Part shown: in pieces, positions 417 to 10,415 of the stretch
Position numbering within the stretch: position 1 is the stretch's first letter
Layout of the letters: each line of letters opens with the position of its first letter
From: Candidatus Wolfebacteria bacterium RIFCSPLOWO2_01_FULL_38_11
Lineage (GTDB): Bacteria; Patescibacteriota; Minisyncoccia; UBA6257; UBA9933
Direction: 5' to 3'
NCBI GenBank assembly: GCA_001793825.1
Contig: MGIQ01000004.1
Span: 1-10,495, forward strand
DNA: 10,495 nucleotides
Notes under the pieces: generated by a model
Databases searched by the model: none
What the model was told of the DNA's origin: nothing
The model's input: only the letters and a program-made list of their open reading frames with translations
Translations under genes and position numbers: made by a program

Positions 417-440
417 ACTCTTGCTTTATCAGTTAGAAAA

Positions 441-473
441 CAAAAAGCCCCAATATTGGGGCTTTTTGTTTTA
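441..473. terminator. bidirectional rho-independent terminator between convergent genes
   Basis: AAAAA-AGCCCCAAtaTTGGGGCT-TTTTTGTTTT. The stem is a perfect 7-8 bp palindrome with an A-tract on the 5' side and a T-tract on the 3' side. It serves the + gene ending at 416 and the - gene ending at 488. Confidence 0.8.
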
Positions 474-5727: not shown

Positions 5728-7095
5728 TTAAAAAAGTTTAGCTTGGGTTTCTGGTTCTTTGCCTGATTTTTTAGGCGATTTTTTCTTTATTTCTTTTGTT
5801 TTTCCGAAAATGCTTATTTTTCCGTATTCGCCGTCAAAGCCCGGTTCGATTTTTACTTTTCCTCCTCTTACCAACTTAATGGCTTCGGCAATTTTAGGGT
5901 GAGCGGATTTTTCAAGGTCGCTGATTTCTGTTTCCAAAAGAATTTTTAATTCACTGCCAAAAGTTTTAATGAGATTTTCGTATTCGGCTTTAGCTTTTTT
6001 GGAAATGGCGGAAGTCTCCAAAGCTTCACTAATGATTCCGTCTAAAGTAATAAGATTATAATAAGGAACAAAATTATTGAAAGAGCGATAGTTGCCGTTT
6101 TTTTCGATTTTTATTTGGCGGTCAGCGAGCTGGTCTACGCGATTTACAACGCCGATGGTAAGCGGCCGGCCGCATTTGGGGCAAATATTTTTGTGTTTTT
6201 TAGAATCTTGGGGAGAAAAAACAACACCGCAATTTCTATGGCCGTCAAAATGATATTTGCCTTCTTCGGGGAAAAATTCAATAGTGGCAACAAAGTTAGG
6301 TTCTATGTTTTGGGTTTTATGTTTTAGGTTTTTTCTAAAATTAGGGATACCGCTTTTTATTGCGTCAAATATCCCCTGATAAGACAATTTTGTGTCAAAT
6401 ATATTGGCCTCTCGACCGATTTTTGGCAAAGAATGGGAATCAGAATTGGAAATCAAAGCAAGATTGTCTAATTTTGACAGGCGCCAGTTCATCTCCGGGT
6501 CGCTGGAAAGTCCAGTCTCTATGGCAAAAATATTTTTTGAATATTTGCCAAAACATTCTTCAATAGAATCAAAGCCGGACATTGAGCCGAAAATGGCAAA
6601 CCAAGGAGTCCAGGCATGAGCGGGAATGATAACCGCCTCGGGATTGATGTTAAAGACAATTTCCGCAAGTTTTTCCGCGTCCAAACCTAAAATTGGACGG
6701 CCGTCGGATTTTAAATTTCCAACAAGAGAAAGGTGAGTGTTGATGGCTTCGGCTGTTTTAAAATCCGGCGCGAAAACCAAATTATGAATGCGGCGGACGC
6801 GGCCGGCTTTGGAATAAATACCGGAAATTTCCACGCTTAACAAAAATCTAGTATCAGCAAAAGTTCCTTTAAGGGTTTTTTTCTTAAATTCTTTTTTTAA
6901 TTGGAAAAGGCCGGGTTCGGCCGGCTCTAATTTTTCTTTTATTTCTTGGAAATAAAGAGGGTGGGTGAAATCCCCTGTTCCCATAACTTGAATACCTTTA
7001 TCGTCAGCCCAGTGGTCTAAGTCAGCAATGTTCATATCAGGGCTGGTGGCGCGGGAATAATGGGAATGAATATGGAGGTCGGAGATGAATCTCAT
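5728..7095 (-). CDS. PHP-domain nuclease, endonuclease Q-like (TIGR00375-type family) with CxxC zinc knuckle
   Basis: The protein is 455 aa from ATG at 7095 (CAT at 7093-7095 on + strand). It begins MRFISDLHIHSHYSRA, the PHP motif I (HxH). Later PHP His/Asp motifs are present: IIPAHAWTPWF and SNSDSHS. It has a zinc knuckle, H-x2-NC...CPKCG, and a Lys-rich low-complexity C-terminal tail. The track ORF started at 7188, but codons 1-31 of that are antisense of tRNA-Leu, so the start was trimmed. The endonuclease Q family assignment is from memory of its N-terminal DLHIHS..YSRA motif plus Zn finger. Confidence 0.6.
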   Translation of the reverse strand: MRFISDLHIHSHYSRATSPDMNIADLDHWADDKGIQVMGTGDFTHPLYFQEIKEKLEPAEPGLFQLKKEFKKKTLKGTFADTRFLLSVEISGIYSKAGRVRRIHNLVFAPDFKTAEAINTHLSLVGNLKSDGRPILGLDAEKLAEIVFNINPEAVIIPAHAWTPWFAIFGSMSGFDSIEECFGKYSKNIFAIETGLSSDPEMNWRLSKLDNLALISNSDSHSLPKIGREANIFDTKLSYQGIFDAIKSGIPNFRKNLKHKTQNIEPNFVATIEFFPEEGKYHFDGHRNCGVVFSPQDSKKHKNICPKCGRPLTIGVVNRVDQLADRQIKIEKNGNYRSFNNFVPYYNLITLDGIISEALETSAISKKAKAEYENLIKTFGSELKILLETEISDLEKSAHPKIAEAIKLVRGGKVKIEPGFDGEYGKISIFGKTKEIKKKSPKKSGKEPETQAKLF

Positions 7096-7109
7096 AAATT
7101 TATTTTTAA

Positions 7110-7194
7110 TGGTGCCGAGGGTGGGATTTGAACCCACATGCCTTGCGGCGCTAGCTCCTAAAGCTAGTGCGTCTGCCAATTTCGCCACCTCGGC
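7110..7194 (-). tRNA. tRNA-Leu (anticodon UAG), type II, CCA encoded
   Basis: On the minus strand the tRNA is 85 nt. The acceptor is GCCGAGG/CCTCGGC. It has U8 and G9, a 3-bp D-stem (GCG/CGC) with an 11-nt D-loop, and an anticodon stem CTAGC/GCTAG. The anticodon loop is TTTAGGA, giving anticodon TAG that reads CUA. The variable arm is 13 nt. The T-arm is GTGGG-TTCAAAT-CCCAC, the discriminator is A, and it ends in CCA. The overall sequence closely resembles bacterial tRNA-Leu (GCCGAAGTGGCGAAAT...). Confidence 0.9.
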
Positions 7195-7253: not shown

Positions 7254-7282
7254 TTGACGTCTATATAATTTTATGATATAAT
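7254..7282 (+). promoter_or_regulatory. near-consensus sigma70 promoter (TTGACG-17-TATAAT with TGn extension) for the SPFH operon
   Basis: TTGACG at 7254-7259, an exact 17-bp spacer, and TATAAT at 7277-7282. The -10 is preceded by TGA (TGaTATAAT), an extended -10. The predicted TSS is ~7289, giving a ~68-nt 5' UTR that contains a strong SD (GGAGGA) 6 nt before ATG 7358. Confidence 0.7.
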
Positions 7283-7357
7283 ATCGGCGTTCTTTGAGAA
7301 GTTAATAAGGTATAAAAAAATAAAAACAAACTGGCCAATGGCCGAAGGAGGACGAAG

Positions 7358-8575
7358 ATGAGTGTAGAAAGGATGACAAAGTGGATTTTTTTAAGCGTTG
7401 CAGTAATTCTCAATTTTTTTCTTATCATTGTTGAATATGTCTGGCTTTCAAAATATTCAATAATGATTGGCGAGTGGGAATGTAATTTGGGTTGGGCTAC
7501 TTTTTTTGCTCAGCTTCTTTATAATATTCTTAGTTTTCGAATAGTCGGACCAACAGAGCTTGGAGCATTGCTTTTCTTTGGTAGGCCCATACGCGATGTG
7601 GATTCTGGGTTGAGATTTGTTCCGTTTCTTGTATGCCGGTTGGCAAGGAATACAAAAAATGCTATTGAGATTGAACTTCCGGCCCGGCCTGAACTAATAT
7701 ACAGGGCTGAGCGAGGGAAAGAAGAGGTTGTACCGGAAAATCTTCTAAAGCTCGGATTCAGGCCTCCAATCAGAGTTCAATTTGGGTGGCCAGGAATTAA
7801 ACTAGAGACAGAAGATCTCGGGGGTAAAATCAAAGATCCTAAAACAAAAGAAGAGGAACGCGAAAAAGCTATAAAAACTAAAGAACTCTACGACGCCTTG
7901 AATAAACTTATAATAGGCGAAATCTTTGAGGGTGATCCATTAAATGTCCGTATGACTGTGGAAACCCCCCTTGTAGTTCGGCTGAAAATCAGCAGTCTCG
8001 TTAATTTTTTGGAAGTATTCGGCTCGATAGAGAACGCAGAAGACCATATACAAGACATCGCGGTAGCGATGCTTAACCGGGAATTTTCAAAAATCACTCC
8101 CGCAGTAGCGCAACATCATCTCGGAACGTTTAGCAATTTAATAAAAGATGATGTTATCGAAAGAATAAGAAGCGACAAAGGGAGTGATTGTGGCGTAAAT
8201 ATTATGACAGTACTCTTACGCCCCTTTGTTTACAGCCACGAGTTTAATGCGGCTATTCAAGAGCCAGCCGAAGAGCGAGCGAAAAAACAGGCAACTGTTA
8301 CTGCCGCTGAAGCCCAGAAGCGAAAAGATATCCTTGAAGGAGAGGGTCAAGGAGCAAAAGAAAAAGCCATAATTGATGGCCGAACAAAAGGCCTTACGAA
8401 TATGGCAAAAGAACTTGGTGTTTTGCCCTTAGCTGTATTGAGCGCAGAAACAGCGCGAGCAATTACGGCAAATCCAGGCCAAAAGACAATTATTGCCGGC
8501 ACAGCTGGTTTTAACGATCTGATGGCTGTGGGTGCTGCCCTTGGAGAAGTCTTTAGAAAGGAGGATAAAAAATGA
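7358..8575 (+). CDS. SPFH / band-7 domain protein (stomatin/HflC-like), membrane-anchored, with atypical ~85-aa charged insertion
   Basis: The 405-aa protein has an N-terminal TM helix (IFLSVAVILNFFLIIVEYVW). The SPFH beta-start is GALLFFGRPIRDVDSGLRFVPFLVCRLAR, corresponding to GPGLHF.IPFID.V. The SPFH core is VRMTVETPLVVRL...AVAMLNREF...GVNIMTVLLRPFVYSHEFNAAI. The typical C-terminal coiled-coil is AEAQKRKDILEGEGQGAKEKAI. The SD is AGGAGG. GC content (~45-53%) is clearly above the window background (~37%). Confidence 0.75.
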   Translation: MSVERMTKWIFLSVAVILNFFLIIVEYVWLSKYSIMIGEWECNLGWATFFAQLLYNILSFRIVGPTELGALLFFGRPIRDVDSGLRFVPFLVCRLARNTKNAIEIELPARPELIYRAERGKEEVVPENLLKLGFRPPIRVQFGWPGIKLETEDLGGKIKDPKTKEEEREKAIKTKELYDALNKLIIGEIFEGDPLNVRMTVETPLVVRLKISSLVNFLEVFGSIENAEDHIQDIAVAMLNREFSKITPAVAQHHLGTFSNLIKDDVIERIRSDKGSDCGVNIMTVLLRPFVYSHEFNAAIQEPAEERAKKQATVTAAEAQKRKDILEGEGQGAKEKAIIDGRTKGLTNMAKELGVLPLAVLSAETARAITANPGQKTIIAGTAGFNDLMAVGAALGEVFRKEDKK

Positions 8576-9123
8576 AGTTCCCACTGGTTGTATTTTTCTT
8601 GATTCTGGCAATAGTCATTTTTATGAAATGGCGTCAGAGTCAGGATCAGTTAGCGTCAGTGATAAAGGGAAAAGAACCAGGTAAAGGCGGACAGAAAAAA
8701 CCGGCGCGGAAAATCCCAAAAATCGGTTACGCGATTTTATTCATTATTCTTGTTTCCGTGATTTCGATTTTTTATAAATCGGAAATAAGAGAGTGGATAG
8801 AATCCAGGCCAGCGAAAACTGTTCTTGCGGCGCAGATAGTTTATCCCGCGTGTTATGACGCGCAAGATATAATGGCCAGGGGAGCAAGTGAGATAATTGC
8901 GAGACCGAATTGCTGGTCTGGCAATATCTCCATTCCGCCGCAGAGCTGGTTTCGAATCGTGCCTTCTGGGAAAGTGACGATTCGGACTTGGGCTGGCAGA
9001 GTGATTCGCGACGGCCCCGGGCAAGCCAACTGGCTGGGAGACGATATCCGAGACGGCAATTTCCGGATAATCTCGGACGAAAGCCAACCGGTTAAAGTCG
9101 CAATCCTTTCTCGGCCAAAATGA
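8572..9123 (+). CDS. uncharacterised 2-TM membrane protein with Lys-rich cytoplasmic loop and Cys-containing extracytoplasmic C-terminal domain; SPFH operon partner (NfeD-like role hypothesised)
   Basis: The 183-aa protein starts at an ATG overlapping the upstream stop (ATGA at 8572-8575), so the two genes are translationally coupled. The SD is AGGAGGAT, 6 nt upstream. TM1 is residues 4-18, followed by a K/R-rich loop (KGKEPGKGGQKKPARKIPK). TM2 is ~51-68. The ~115-aa C-terminal domain has 2 Cys (YPACYDAQ...RPNCWSG) and is Arg/Gly/Asp-rich (GRVIRDGPGQANWLGDDIRDGNFRII). GC content is ~52-55%. No family was recognised. Confidence 0.7.
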   Translation: MKFPLVVFFLILAIVIFMKWRQSQDQLASVIKGKEPGKGGQKKPARKIPKIGYAILFIILVSVISIFYKSEIREWIESRPAKTVLAAQIVYPACYDAQDIMARGASEIIARPNCWSGNISIPPQSWFRIVPSGKVTIRTWAGRVIRDGPGQANWLGDDIRDGNFRIISDESQPVKVAILSRPK

Positions 9124-9160
9124 GAGCGAAAGAATAAATTTAATAAAGGAGGTGAAAACC

Positions 9161-9194
9161 AAAACCCCGCTTGAGTTAAGAGCGGGGTTTTTTA
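9161..9194. terminator. bidirectional rho-independent terminator
   Basis: AAAA-CCCCGCT-tgagttaag-AGCGGGG-TTTTTT. The 7-bp GC-rich stem has a T-tract on the + strand and an A-tract that reads as a U-tract for the - strand. It lies between convergent genes ending at 9123 (+) and 9216 (-). Confidence 0.8.
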
Positions 9195-9215: not shown

Positions 9216-9602
9216 TTATTGTCCAGTTGAAACGAATGATTTAACAATTAGATTTATGCTAACTGCCAATAAAGCAACGACGATTGCAACAACAGCGTAA
9301 ATAATTTGATTTTTAGCTGAACCAACTTTTTCCGGATCACCGCCTGATGTCAAATAAGTGAAAGCGGCGAATAAAATCATTATGCCGGCAATAATGAAAA
9401 AGATGGTATATATCCATTGGAAGGCATAAATTATCAATCCAACAACTCCGCCTATGTTTTCTGACGGAAGAATTTGATTAATGCCAAGATCGCCTGACCC
9501 CGGGATTTCTCCCTTAGTGATGGCAAAAGCGGTATTTGTTATAAGGCCAGACATTATAATCATTAATGATAGGCCGATAATTATTAATAAATTAAATTTC
9601 AT
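9216..9602 (-). CDS. small secreted 2-TM protein, paralog 3 of tandem pilin-like family (VirB2/TrbC-type topology)
   Basis: The 128-aa protein has an N-terminal signal peptide with an AxA site (TNTAFA|ITKG). The mature protein has a short variable N-terminus (GEIPGSGDLGINQILPSEN), then TM1 (LIIYAFQWIYTIFFIIAGIMILFAAFTYL), a conserved loop TSGGDPEKVGSAKNQ, and TM2 (IIYAVVAIVVALLAVSINLIV). It is ~65% identical to paralog 2 over the TM core. Confidence 0.75.
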   Translation of the reverse strand: MKFNLLIIIGLSLMIIMSGLITNTAFAITKGEIPGSGDLGINQILPSENIGGVVGLIIYAFQWIYTIFFIIAGIMILFAAFTYLTSGGDPEKVGSAKNQIIYAVVAIVVALLAVSINLIVKSFVSTGQ

Positions 9603-9665
9603 GATTATTTTGTTTTAATTTACGACCTTTTTGTTTATTATATTTAATTTTAGCAAAAAATAAAA

Positions 9666-10025
9666 TTAATTTCCTGTGGATATAAAATTAGAAATAATGG
9701 CGGTAAAACTGACGGATAAAAGAGCAATAATAATGGCAATGACGGCATATAAAATTTGCTTGTTGGCAGTTTTAATTTTTTCAGCATCGCCTTGGGCGGT
9801 AAGATATGCGAAAGCGGCGAGAATTATAAAAATGGCGGCAACAATAAAGAAAATCGTATACATCCATTTAACGACATTTACCAGTATTCTAATTATATCA
9901 TTAACGCTTTTTACCGGCGTATCAACATCTGCCGCAAAAACATTCAACGGAACTAAAAAGGAAATTAGGAAATTGACGGAAATTAAGAGACCTATCGAAG
10001 TCAGCAAGAATTTATTTGATTTCAT
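9666..10025 (-). CDS. small secreted 2-TM protein, paralog 2 of tandem pilin-like family
   Basis: The 119-aa protein has a signal peptide with cleavage site NVFA|ADVD. It shares the core WMYTIFFIVAAIFIILAAFAYLTAQGDAEKIKTANKQILYAVIAIIIALLSVS with paralogs 1 and 3. It lies 9 nt downstream of paralog 1's stop with no SD, suggesting coupled translation. The 120-aa + strand ORF at 9676-10038 is its antisense shadow. Confidence 0.75.
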   Translation of the reverse strand: MKSNKFLLTSIGLLISVNFLISFLVPLNVFAADVDTPVKSVNDIIRILVNVVKWMYTIFFIVAAIFIILAAFAYLTAQGDAEKIKTANKQILYAVIAIIIALLSVSFTAIISNFISTGN

Positions 10026-10034
10026 AAATTTTCA

Positions 10035-10415
10035 TTAAATTTTGCCGGATAAATTAGCGCCTAAAATTTCTCCGACAATATAAATAATGCCGTAACTGCA
10101 AATAATTATAGCATATCCGATAACCGCCCATTTAATAGTATTTTGGCCACTTTTGACTTTTTCCGGGTTGTCGCCAGCGGTTAAAATTTGAAAAGCTCCG
10201 TAAATGACCATAATTACGAGAATCGGAGCGCCGATTTTAATAAGATAGCCAATAATACCCTTGAGAAGATCGGTAAAGCTGTCGTATTTAAGAGGATTTG
10301 CAAAGCCGCCGGTTCCACCGCCTATATCAGCAAGCGAAAAACTCGTGGAAATAATAAACAAGAGCGGAATAAACAGAAAGAGAAGAGCAAATTTATTTTT
10401 TAATAATTTAATCAT
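10035..10415 (-). CDS. small secreted 2-TM protein, paralog 1 (most divergent) of tandem pilin-like family
   Basis: The 126-aa protein has a signal peptide with cleavage site SFSLA|DIGGG and a Gly-rich mature N-terminus (DIGGGTGGFANPLKYDSF). Its core IYGAFQILTAGDNPEKVKSGQNTIKWAVIGYAII retains the A-F-x-x-L-T-x-G-D-x-E-K-V...Q/K-x-I loop signature of the family. Confidence 0.7.
   Translation of the reverse strand: MIKLLKNKFALLFLFIPLLFIISTSFSLADIGGGTGGFANPLKYDSFTDLLKGIIGYLIKIGAPILVIMVIYGAFQILTAGDNPEKVKSGQNTIKWAVIGYAIIICSYGIIYIVGEILGANLSGKI

What the first reader, a model, noticed from the sequence alone, without database searches (positions are those of the whole stretch)
7254..9194. Compositionally foreign two-gene membrane module (SPFH + unknown partner) under a consensus promoter, a candidate horizontally acquired system
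From about 7600 to 9123, GC rises to ~45-55%, sampled in 60-nt blocks, against ~37% elsewhere. Codon choice shifts too (GGC, GCC, CTC, CGG become frequent). The unit is self-contained. It has a near-perfect TTGACG-17-TGaTATAAT promoter, a strong SD, ATGA translational coupling, and its own bidirectional terminator. It sits directly beside a tRNA gene. The products are an SPFH scaffold and a 2-TM protein with a disulfide-capable extracytoplasmic domain matching no family recognised here. SPFH proteins almost always work with a dedicated partner, either an NfeD-type protease/OB-fold protein or FtsH. Here the partner is downstream and novel. That suggests an undescribed SPFH-partner pairing, possibly an envelope-stress, membrane-microdomain or phage-exclusion module imported from a higher-GC donor.
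Basis: partly seen in the sequence, partly recalled or inferred. Interest (0 to 1): 0.7.

Follow-up and report, generated by a model that had tools for sequence, protein, structure and literature searches.

The report
Native SPFH–partner operon beside pilin array
This is not imported DNA but an old, vertically inherited two-gene membrane operon of ultra-small Patescibacteria: an SPFH scaffold protein plus an undescribed membrane-anchored partner that always sits next to the VirB2-like pilin gene array, which suggests it helps build or manage that pilus.

Summary
The anatomy is real. There is a best-in-window promoter (7254-7282), a Shine-Dalgarno site, an SPFH gene (7358-8575), an ATGA-overlapped 2-TM partner gene (8572-9123), a terminator (9161-9191) and tRNA-Leu(UAG) upstream.

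The "foreign, higher-GC import" reading fails:
- Raw GC is only 0.45 against 0.376 for the rest of the window.
- With amino-acid composition controlled, SPFH GC3 is below expectation (z -2.4). The partner is +1.8, inside the native spread.
- The named codons are not enriched, and no att repeats or integrase are present.
- The block tRNA-Leu / SPFH / partner / T4SS_pilin array / SBP_bac_1 / gyrA recurs in Patescibacteria relatives down to about 50% GyrA identity. The promoter is conserved too.

The partner abuts a pilin array in 20 of 20 informative loci. Two unrelated SPFH types, or non-SPFH proteins, fill the upstream slot.

Best reading: a lineage-specific envelope module serving the VirB2-like pilus. 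The function is inferred from gene context only.

The parts
7110..7194 (-). tRNA-Leu(UAG). It is the ancestral left neighbour of the operon, not an integration scar for it.
   Evidence: ARAGORN and Rfam. The same tRNA lies just upstream of the SPFH gene in L004, L012, L013, L014, L017, L019, L020, L021 and L023, and upstream of the slot in L005. Its 5' end faces the operon. In L004 a serine-recombinase island sits on its 3' side.
7254..7282 (+). Sigma-70-type promoter TTGACG-N17-(TG)TATAAT
   Evidence: Best match in the window, 11/12 plus extended -10. TTGAC and TG-TAT are invariant in the aligned upstream regions of L004, L012, L013, L014 and L020.
7331..7357 (+). Conserved 5'-UTR end: GGCCAATGGCC palindrome followed by the Shine-Dalgarno GAAGGAGGA
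   Evidence: Sequence. Near-identical motif in L014, L020 and L004. No consensus RNA structure was predicted.
7358..8575 (+). ORF1, 405 aa: N-terminal TM helix, conserved amphipathic helix, SPFH/Band 7 domain with a ~40-60 aa insertion, then a ~60-residue coiled-coil helix
   Evidence: Pfam PF01145 at 31.3 bits, above the cutoff. A profile of 25 homologues hits stomatin, QmcA and prohibitin in the PDB. The AF2 model matches only SPFH cage proteins. There are 82 homologues, nearly all Patescibacteria.
8572..9123 (+). ORF2, 183 aa: TM1 (3-19), basic cytoplasmic loop (20-51), TM2 (52-69), extracytoplasmic C-terminal jelly-roll domain (about 92-183) with Cys94/Cys114
9161..9191 (+). Intrinsic terminator hairpin shared with the convergent pilin operon
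   Evidence: 12-bp stem with 6 G-C pairs and a T tail. It lies 38 nt after the ORF2 stop and 25 nt after the stop of the first pilin gene. Function on the minus strand is inferred; the scan did not list it there.
9216..9602 (-). VirB2-like pilin gene 1 (T4SS_pilin)
   Evidence: PF18895, E 4e-10, 40.1 bits against a 26.6 cutoff.
9666..10025 (-). VirB2-like pilin gene 2
   Evidence: PF18895 at 30.4 bits; TrbC hit is weak.
10035..10415 (-). VirB2-like pilin gene 3. The array continues beyond the window with a fourth pilin, SBP_bac_1 and gyrA.
   Evidence: PF18895 at 43 bits. Contig context from L007.

Best explanation
The window comes from Candidatus Wolfebacteria RIFCSPLOWO2_01_FULL_38_11. The two genes form a native, vertically inherited operon that is part of a conserved Patescibacteria (Paceibacteria-type) chromosomal block: tRNA-Leu(UAG) | SPFH -> partner -> <- VirB2-like pilin array, SBP_bac_1, gyrA.

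Shown:
- ORF1 is an SPFH-family protein with a membrane anchor and a long coiled-coil helix, the architecture of cage-forming SPFH scaffolds.
- ORF2 is a bitopic or hairpin membrane protein. Its conserved parts are the first TM helix and a small non-enzymatic jelly-roll domain exposed outside the membrane.
- The partner always lies tail-to-tail with a pilin array.
- In some lineages the same positional partner carries a VirB1-like lytic transglycosylase (SLT) domain.

Inferred mechanism:
- The SPFH protein oligomerises into a ring or cage that delimits a membrane patch.
- The co-translated partner is its client or adaptor within that patch.
- The partner's outward-facing jelly-roll domain binds cell-wall glycan or pilin subunits at the site where the VirB2-like pilins are stored and extruded. 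The SLT domain, where present, cuts the wall.
- The pair would thus act as an envelope assembly or quality-control platform for the VirB2-like pilus rather than as a stand-alone stress or defence island.
For: Identity and origin:
- ORF1 and ORF2 are 100% identical to A2999_01320 and A2999_01325.

Nativeness:
- GC3 controlled for amino acids gives z -2.4 for ORF1 and +1.8 for ORF2, against +3.5 for gyrA.
- Third-position identity between partner orthologues is only 0.36-0.54 at 76-81% amino-acid identity.
- No flanking direct repeats.

Synteny:
- The block recurs in L011, L012, L013, L016, L018, L019, L020, L023, L024, L025 and L029, with GyrA identity between 79% and 50%.
- tRNA-Leu(UAG) is conserved upstream and the promoter is conserved.

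Pairing:
- A partner-type ORF follows the SPFH gene, with overlap or a short gap, in every locus that has downstream sequence.
- The C-domain profile detects 16-17 of the 23 downstream ORFs.
- Two mutually unrelated SPFH types occupy the same upstream slot. The window type and the L004/L025 type are 38% identical to each other within the second type, and the second type is not hit by the profile of the first.

Link to pilins:
- The partner abuts PF18895 genes in 20 of 20 loci with downstream sequence. This includes loci that lack an SPFH gene (L005, L006, L027, L030) and L013, where part of the array is inverted.

Cell-wall link:
- P0093 and P0100 have the layout TM + SLT (E ~1e-30) + C-domain, and P0093 sits in the identical block.

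Folds:

Topology:
- The 9:2 basic loop follows the positive-inside rule.

Literature:
- VirB2-like pilin arrays are widespread in Patescibacteria and were reported essential in one cultivated strain. Most such genomes lack a recognisable VirB1. SPFH is not mentioned (PMC12102498).
Against: - The functional link to pilins rests on gene adjacency alone. The conserved block also contains housekeeping genes (gyrA, and beyond it S1), so some of the adjacency may simply reflect a stable gene order in reduced genomes.
- The operon and the pilin array are convergent and are not co-transcribed.
- No VirB4 or other T4SS machinery lies within the 18.6-kb or 17-kb contexts examined.
- SPFH orientation (cytoplasmic or extracytoplasmic) is unresolved. 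The ORF1 model is only moderate (pLDDT 70.5, with residues 61-100 below 50).
- No complex prediction could be run.
- The two Cys residues are conserved only in a subgroup of the family.
- SPFH is absent from the upstream slot in about a quarter of partner loci, so the SPFH-partner pairing is frequent but not obligatory.
Confidence: 0.5

Rival explanations
1. A generic SPFH membrane-microdomain or quality-control pair, functionally analogous to SPFH-NfeD or HflK/C-FtsH. The partner only regulates or is enclosed by the SPFH cage. The neighbouring pilin array is a coincidence of conserved gene order.
For: - SPFH operons with a small membrane partner are common; the QmcA-YbbJ and HflK/C-FtsH structures appear among the fold hits.
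- The conserved block extends to gyrA, S1 and other housekeeping genes, so synteny alone is not specific.
- The pilin operon is on the opposite strand.
- An FtsH gene exists about 9 kb away on the same contig.
Against: - The partner stays next to pilins when the SPFH gene is replaced by unrelated proteins (L005, L006, L027, L030) and when the pilin array is partly inverted (L013).
- SLT-bearing partner variants point to the cell wall, not to SPFH regulation.
- The partner's conserved domain is extracytoplasmic and a jelly-roll, not an NfeD OB-fold.
- The HflK and HflC equivalog scores are far below their cutoffs.
Confidence: 0.3
2. The partner primarily belongs to the pilin system, as a VirB1-position or pilus-base accessory protein. 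The SPFH gene is an interchangeable, non-essential upstream passenger with no direct interaction with it.
For: - Partner-pilin adjacency is 20 of 20, whereas an SPFH gene is upstream in about 17 of 23 loci.
- The upstream slot holds three kinds of unrelated proteins.
Against: - Translational coupling (ATGA or adjacent stop/start) between SPFH and partner is conserved in many loci.
- Two independent SPFH lineages were recruited to the same slot. That is hard to explain without a functional reason for having an SPFH protein there.
Confidence: 0.15
3. One reading: a recently acquired, compositionally foreign island from a higher-GC donor, possibly a phage-exclusion or envelope-stress module inserted at a tRNA.
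For: - Raw GC of 7600-9123 (0.450) is the highest 1.5-kb window of the contig.
- ORF2 C-domain GC3 is z +2.0.
- The unit lies next to a tRNA.
- In relative L004 a serine-recombinase element does sit at this same tRNA.
- SPFH identity is partly discordant with GyrA identity (L012 64% against 54%; L016 40% against 73%).
Against: - ORF1 GC3 is below expectation, and ORF2 lies within the native spread.
- The named codons are not enriched.
- The same locus, promoter and tRNA are conserved across relatives.
- All homologues are Patescibacteria.
- Synonymous sites are saturated.
- No att repeats or integrase.
- The unit lies on the 5' side of the tRNA, while the L004 element is on the 3' side.
- No PADLOC or PHROG hits.
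- Partner genes are slightly GC-richer than their locus in most relatives too.
Confidence: 0.03

Closest known systems
SPFH-NfeD operons (e.g. E. coli QmcA-YbbJ, B. subtilis FloA/NfeD2 and FloT/YuaF, Pyrococcus stomatin PH1511 with the NfeD protease PH1510)
   Same: - A two-gene, translationally coupled operon of an SPFH scaffold and a small membrane-anchored partner with a compact all-beta C-terminal domain.
- ORF1 has the SPFH domain plus a long coiled-coil helix and matches QmcA, stomatin and HflK/C structures.
   Different: - The partner has no NfeD (PF01957) match.
- Its domain is a jelly-roll/double-stranded beta-helix, not an OB-fold.
- The domain is predicted to face outside rather than the cytoplasm.
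- The partner is encoded downstream rather than upstream of the SPFH gene.
- The partner is locked to a pilin array.
HflK/HflC-FtsH
   Same: - A variable charged N-terminal tail, a single clear TM helix, then SPFH and coiled coil.
- HflK/C structures are the top fold hits.
- An SPFH cage that encloses a client's extracytoplasmic domain is a plausible analogy.
   Different: - Only one SPFH gene, not a paralogous pair.
- TIGR01933 and TIGR01932 score 17.1 and 12.9 bits against cutoffs of 159 and 134.
- FtsH is not adjacent; it is about 9 kb away.
VirB2-like pilin arrays and the T4SS of Patescibacteria (PMC12102498)
   Same: The downstream genes are PF18895 T4SS_pilin paralogues in a tandem array, exactly the kind of array that paper describes.
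   Different: - The paper does not mention SPFH, the partner family or the gyrA linkage.
[quoted passage not shown]
- Here the array has a conserved neighbour whose variants carry an SLT domain.
VirB1-type lytic transglycosylases of T4SS
   Same: Positional orthologues P0093 and P0100 carry a Pfam SLT domain (E ~1e-30) between the membrane anchor and the C-domain, next to pilin genes.
   Different: The window's ORF2 has no SLT domain. Only the anchor and the jelly-roll domain are shared.
Cupin / double-stranded beta-helix superfamily, including non-enzymatic members (PA-IL lectin, CBM_E1, CENP-C/Mif2 cupin)
   Different: - 6-20% sequence identity and no Pfam cupin hit.
- No histidine at all in the window's domain, and no conserved metal ligands.
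- It is therefore a binding or structural module, not an enzyme.

Membership tests
SPFH / Band 7 (PF01145), for ORF1 | Sequence match to the SPFH domain above the curated threshold | tested here: met
   31.3 bits against a 23.6 cutoff, E 2.7e-7. Only profile positions 59-176 match, because of an insertion. A family profile hits stomatin, QmcA and prohibitin chains.
SPFH / Band 7 (PF01145), for ORF1 | N-terminal membrane anchor, followed by an alpha/beta SPFH domain and a long coiled-coil helix | tested here: met
   Hydrophobic helix 9-30. The model has a TM helix 2-30, an alpha/beta core and a helix 294-353. The top 47 Foldseek PDB hits are all SPFH proteins.
SPFH / Band 7 (PF01145), for ORF1 | Assembly into a large ring or cage oligomer on the membrane | not testable with these tools
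   Only monomer prediction was available.
NfeD (PF01957), for ORF2 | C-terminal OB-fold NfeD domain | tested here: not met
NfeD (PF01957), for ORF2 | Membrane-anchored protein encoded in an operon with an SPFH gene | tested here: met
   Two TM helices, and an ATGA overlap with ORF1. This is a resemblance in operon logic only.
HflK/HflC-FtsH modulators | Equivalog-level match to HflK or HflC, and a pair of paralogous SPFH genes | tested here: not met
   17.1 and 12.9 bits against cutoffs of 159.4 and 134.4. There is a single SPFH gene in the locus.
Genomic island / recent horizontal acquisition | Codon usage or GC3 deviating from the host once amino-acid composition is controlled | tested here: not met
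   ORF1 z -2.4 and ORF2 z +1.8. Native genes range from -2.3 to +3.9.
Genomic island / recent horizontal acquisition | Integrase and flanking att direct repeats at a tRNA 3' end | tested here: not met
   No recombinase ORF in the window. No bracketing repeats. The operon lies on the 5' side of the tRNA.
Genomic island / recent horizontal acquisition | Patchy presence among relatives, or best hits in another phylum | tested here: not met
   The same block occurs in more than 15 Patescibacteria loci with 50-79% GyrA identity. Homologues are named Wolfebacteria, Terrybacteria, Parcubacteria or Patescibacteria. In-situ replacement of the SPFH type in some relatives shows that older exchange did occur.
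Known anti-phage defence systems | Match to a PADLOC-DB defence protein model | tested here: not met
   No hits at E <= 0.1 for either protein. No PHROG hits.
Cupin superfamily, for the ORF2 C-domain | Double-stranded beta-helix fold | tested here: met
Cupin superfamily, for the ORF2 C-domain | Conserved His/Glu metal-binding motifs | tested here: not met
   No His in the window's domain. The conserved columns are W, S, P, G, W, G and F only. No Pfam cupin hit in 30 members.
VirB1-like lytic transglycosylase | SLT domain (PF01464) | tested here: not met
   Absent from ORF2. Present in positional orthologues P0093 and P0100.
T4SS_pilin (PF18895), for the downstream genes 9216-10415 | Match above the curated threshold; small protein with two hydrophobic helices; tandem array | tested here: met
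   40.1, 30.4 and 43.0 bits against a 26.6 cutoff. A fourth copy lies on the contig.

The most novel reading that the evidence does not exclude
The SPFH protein and the jelly-roll (sometimes SLT-bearing) partner are dedicated, lineage-specific components of the Patescibacteria VirB2-like pilus apparatus. An SPFH cage would corral the membrane pool of pilins, and the partner would tether or open the cell wall at the assembly site. This would supply the 'missing VirB1/accessory' functions of a T4SS-derived organelle reported as essential for epibiotic growth. It would be the first SPFH scaffold assigned to a type IV secretion or pilus system, and the first SPFH partner with an extracytoplasmic non-OB domain.
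Probability: 0.3. Interest if true: 0.7.

Novelty: new variant of a known kind. Interest (0 to 1): 0.5.

Why it matters
Patescibacteria make up a large share of bacterial diversity and live attached to host cells. Their VirB2-like pilin arrays and T4SS genes are among the few systems reported as essential for that lifestyle (as summarised in PMC12102498), yet how the pilins are handled is unknown, and most genomes lack a recognisable VirB1.

A conserved, strongly promoted SPFH-partner operon locked to the pilin array gives two concrete, testable candidates for that missing biology. It also defines a new partner class for SPFH scaffolds, whose clients are known in only a handful of cases.

The result is also a caution about method. 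A local GC rise beside a tRNA looked like an island, but it came from amino-acid composition inside an ancient syntenic block.

Tried and rejected
- A single-protein scan of genome contigs with ORF1 found nothing because the patterns were too specific. The alignment-based rescan worked.
- My first GC3 simulation timed out. I replaced it with an analytic expectation.
- A BFVD viral fold search of the C-domain gave no hit at E <= 1e-3, only generic cupin-like folds.
- Pfam scans of 30 C-domains gave no consistent family.
- PADLOC and PHROG searches were empty.
- An Rfam scan of the window found only the two tRNAs.
- RNAalifold on the conserved 5' UTR predicted no structure.
- Pfam scans of the non-SPFH upstream proteins of L005, L006 and L027 gave only sub-threshold noise.
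- I considered recent transfer of the highly conserved C-domain (75-81% identity although L001's SPFH is only 34% identical). I rejected it because synonymous sites are near saturation.
- I considered that the Cys pair defines the family. I rejected this because the second Cys is Q/K/R/E in most members.
- Literature searches for SPFH together with Patescibacteria/CPR, or with T4SS pilins, returned nothing relevant.
- I did not run the third large homology search or the metagenome scan, because 20 or more loci already answered the synteny question.
Full report
**What is in the sequence**

The window matches a Candidatus Wolfebacteria MAG, RIFCSPLOWO2_01_FULL_38_11. ORF1 is 100% identical to A2999_01320 and ORF2 to A2999_01325.

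- TTGACG-17-TATAAT with an upstream TG at 7254-7282, the best promoter-like match in the window. Such matches as a class are not enriched.
- A GAAGGAGGA Shine-Dalgarno site before the ATG at 7358.
- ORF1 at 7358-8575 (405 aa).
- ORF2 at 8572-9123 (183 aa), starting in an ATGA overlap with its own AAGGAGGA.
- A 12-bp G+C-rich hairpin with a T tail at 9161-9191.
- tRNA-Leu(UAG) at 7110-7194 on the minus strand.

ORF1 matches Pfam Band_7 above threshold. ORF2 has two hydrophobic helices, a loop between them with 9 K/R against 2 D/E (hence cytoplasmic by the positive-inside rule), two cysteines in the C-terminal part, and no hit in Pfam, NCBIfam, PADLOC or PHROGs.

**Composition**

The GC claim is only partly right, and the inference drawn from it is wrong. 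GC of 7600-9123 is 0.450 against 0.376 for the rest of the window. This is the top 1.5-kb window of the 18.6-kb contig, but the next best reaches 0.432.

The excess sits in codon positions 1 and 2. ORF1 has GC1 0.547 but GC3 0.347.

I took synonymous codon usage from the 18 other genes of the contig and conditioned on each gene's amino acids. ORF1 GC3 is then lower than expected (0.348 against 0.403, z -2.4). ORF2 is 0.492 against 0.431 (z +1.8; C-domain alone +2.0). Undoubtedly native genes reach +3.5 (gyrA) and +3.9 (an unknown 152-aa gene).

GGC, GCC and CTC are not enriched in the pair; only CGG in ORF2 is (4 of 13 Arg codons). Partner genes are also somewhat GC-richer than their surroundings in most relatives. 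That is a property of the family, not a trace of import into this genome.

**Conservation of the locus**

ORF1 has 82 homologues in the clustered protein collection. Nearly all named ones are Patescibacteria (Wolfebacteria, Terrybacteria, Parcubacteria). A single 'Spirochaetota' MAG label is probably a binning error.

An alignment-based scan of GTDB genomes gave 14 loci, and exact-protein look-ups gave more.

tblastn with the window's and the contig's proteins shows a recurring block:

- SPFH -> partner -> <- three to five T4SS_pilin genes, SBP_bac_1, (methyltransferase), gyrA.

| Locus | GyrA identity to the window's contig |
|---|---|
| L013 | 79% |
| L011 | 76% |
| L005 | 76% |
| L016 | 73% |
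| L020 | 73% |
| L006 | 72% |
| L012 | 54% |
| L018 | 53% |
| L023 | 52% |
| L019 | 50% |

(GyrA identities.)

tRNA-Leu(UAG) lies just upstream of the SPFH gene in nine of these loci. In the more distant ones it is part of a Cys-Leu-Lys-Leu-Gly tRNA cluster.

The promoter (TTGAC-N17-TG-TAT) and a GGCCAATGGCC-plus-SD motif are conserved in five relatives. No direct repeats bracket the operon. The operon lies on the 5' side of the tRNA. In relative L004 a large serine-recombinase element sits on the 3' side of the same tRNA. That is where an integrated element would be expected.

The module is ancestral and native.

**The partner family**

BLAST-level relatives of ORF2 are few. A profile of the C-terminal ~100 residues finds 66 representatives (22 below 1e-10) among 1.84 billion proteins, and the domain is always at the C-terminus.

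In the fetched loci the ORF immediately downstream of the SPFH gene always has the same layout: a conserved N-terminal TM helix (MxxPLIxFxxxLAxxIFxxWRQ), a K/E/P-rich linker, one to three (or about six) further TM helices, and a ~90-residue beta-rich C-terminal domain. The profile recognises 16-17 of these 23 ORFs.

There is no histidine in the window's domain and no conserved metal ligand. The near-invariant positions are W, S, P, G, W, G and F. It is therefore a binding or structural module. It is not an NfeD OB-fold. The Cys pair is confined to one subgroup.

The window's C-domain is 76-81% identical in protein to those of L001, L004, L005 and L006, yet third codon positions are only 36-52% identical. 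This indicates strong purifying selection over long divergence, not recent transfer.

**Clues to function**

- **Partner-pilin adjacency is invariant.** In every locus with sequence downstream of the partner (20 of 20), the next genes are PF18895 T4SS_pilin genes. They are normally convergent. In L013 the array is partly inverted but still adjacent.
- **The upstream slot is variable but biased to SPFH.**
  - Most loci carry the ORF1 type, including a 474-aa version in L029.
  - L004 and L025 carry a different Band_7 type. These two are 38% identical to each other and invisible to the ORF1-family profile.
  - L005, L006, L027 and L030 carry small, unrelated helical proteins.
  - Recruitment of two independent SPFH lineages to the same translationally coupled position argues that an SPFH protein is functionally wanted there.
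- **Some partners carry an SLT domain.** P0093 and P0100 have a lytic-transglycosylase SLT domain (E ~1e-30) between the anchor and the C-domain. P0093 sits in exactly the same block: Band_7, partner, five pilins, SBP_bac_1, methyltransferase, gyrA, Lactamase_B_3, S1. This is the domain of VirB1, the wall-opening accessory of T4SS.
- **Literature.** The only systematic study found (PMC12102498) describes VirB2-like arrays as widespread in Patescibacteria and essential in a cultivated strain. It notes that most such genomes lack VirB1 and does not mention SPFH. I found no paper linking SPFH to these arrays, within the limits of the held library.

**ORF1**

The model is moderate (pLDDT 70.5). 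It shows a TM helix (2-30), a conserved amphipathic helix (44-59), an SPFH alpha/beta core with an inserted helical segment, and a 60-residue helix (294-353).

The significant Foldseek PDB hits are all SPFH cage proteins: HflK/C, prohibitin, stomatin, erlin, flotillin and QmcA.

HflK and HflC equivalog scores are far below their cutoffs, and there is no second SPFH paralogue.

Orientation is unresolved. Homologues have long K/E-rich N-termini, which suggests N-in. Helix 44-59 is too short and polar for a standard TM helix, which would put the SPFH domain outside as in HflK/C. A stomatin-like hairpin with a cytoplasmic SPFH domain cannot be excluded.

**Most likely mechanism**

This is inferred, not shown. 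The SPFH protein forms a ring or cage that defines a membrane patch. The co-translated partner is its client or adaptor. The partner's outward jelly-roll domain binds wall glycan or pilin subunits where VirB2-like pilins are stored or extruded, and the SLT domain, where present, cuts the wall.

I put about 0.5 on this envelope/pilus-platform reading and about 0.3 on a generic SPFH-client pair whose pilin neighbourhood is only conserved gene order. The reading in which the partner belongs to the pilin system and the SPFH gene is an interchangeable passenger gets about 0.15. The horizontally acquired or defence-island reading gets about 0.03.

The conclusion that the operon is native, vertically inherited and conserved as a pair is much firmer, above 0.9.

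**Verdict**

A new SPFH partner is real. Foreign origin is not supported.

In kind, this is a new variant of a known theme, the SPFH-plus-partner operon. The partner family is undescribed, its domain has a different fold and location, and the link to VirB2-like pilin arrays has not been reported. Interest is moderate (0.5), because all functional inference rests on gene context and structure prediction.

Noticed in passing
window 8572-8622; public annotation A2999_01325 (P0083): The deposited protein is 166 aa and starts at Met18, which removes most of the first TM helix. The 183-aa start has a strong SD and the ATGA overlap, and the N-terminal helix is conserved in homologues. The public start is probably wrong.
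   Followed up: yes
window 5728-7188 (-): The mechanical 486-aa ORF reads through tRNA-Leu (its N-terminus MAKLADALALGASAARHVGSNPTLG is translated tRNA). The real gene is the PHP/MJ0043_C-family protein, starting near 7095. It is 71% identical to its L004 counterpart.
   Followed up: partly
L004 2788-6841: In a relative, three unknown genes plus a large serine recombinase (Resolvase/Recombinase/Zn_ribbon_recom) are inserted between the PHP gene and the 3' end of the same tRNA-Leu(UAG). This tRNA is a real integration site, but on the side away from the SPFH operon.
   Followed up: partly
L004 7008-8000; L025 6962-7999: A second Band_7 protein type (330-345 aa; the two are 38% identical to each other; no detectable similarity to ORF1 by BLAST or profile) occupies the same slot upstream of the partner. 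In L004 it sits behind the same conserved promoter and 5' UTR. This looks like in-situ replacement of one SPFH lineage by another.
   Followed up: partly
L005 1028-1919; L006 4541-5756; L027 24-350; L030 3-362: Where no SPFH gene is present, the upstream slot holds small helical proteins with no Pfam family. L005 u179 and L030 u119 are weakly similar to each other. In L005, L006 and L030 (304-319 aa) the partner then has about 5-7 TM helices; the L027 partner P0100 (424 aa) is also a long multi-TM protein.
   Followed up: partly
window 7331-7357 and homologous positions in L014, L020, L004: A GGCCAATGGCC palindrome directly before the Shine-Dalgarno site is conserved, as are an upstream GATAAAAAC-like stretch and TTCTTTGA. 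No consensus RNA structure and no Rfam hit.
   Followed up: partly
window 9216-10415 (-); continuing in L007 10506-14635: Four divergent VirB2-like pilin genes are preceded by an SBP_bac_1-family gene, which overlaps the first pilin gene by 4 nt, and by gyrA. SBP_bac_1 is conserved with the array in all relatives, so it may belong to the pilin system rather than to a transporter.
   Followed up: partly
L007 16979-17437 (outside the window): A 152-aa ORF with no Pfam hit is the real compositional outlier of the contig (GC 0.467, GC3 0.546, z +3.9).
   Followed up: no
L021 7001-8804: In a distant relative the SPFH and partner genes have GC3 of 0.60 and 0.66 in a locus of 0.39 GC. This is a much stronger anomaly than in the window and is unexplained.
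   Followed up: no
P0132 (352 aa): A weak family member (E 3e-5) fuses an FGE-sulfatase domain to the C-terminal jelly-roll domain. P0104 has an extra unassigned domain of about 100 residues.
   Followed up: no
window 437-472: A strong 16-bp-stem hairpin with T and A runs on both sides lies between the convergent cupin and MscS-like genes. It is probably a bidirectional terminator.
   Followed up: no
L012 versus L016, compared with the window: SPFH identity is discordant with GyrA identity (L012: SPFH 64%, GyrA 54%; L016: SPFH 40%, GyrA 73%). Partner C-domain identity is discordant with both. This hints at old recombination or exchange of alleles within the conserved slot.
   Followed up: partly
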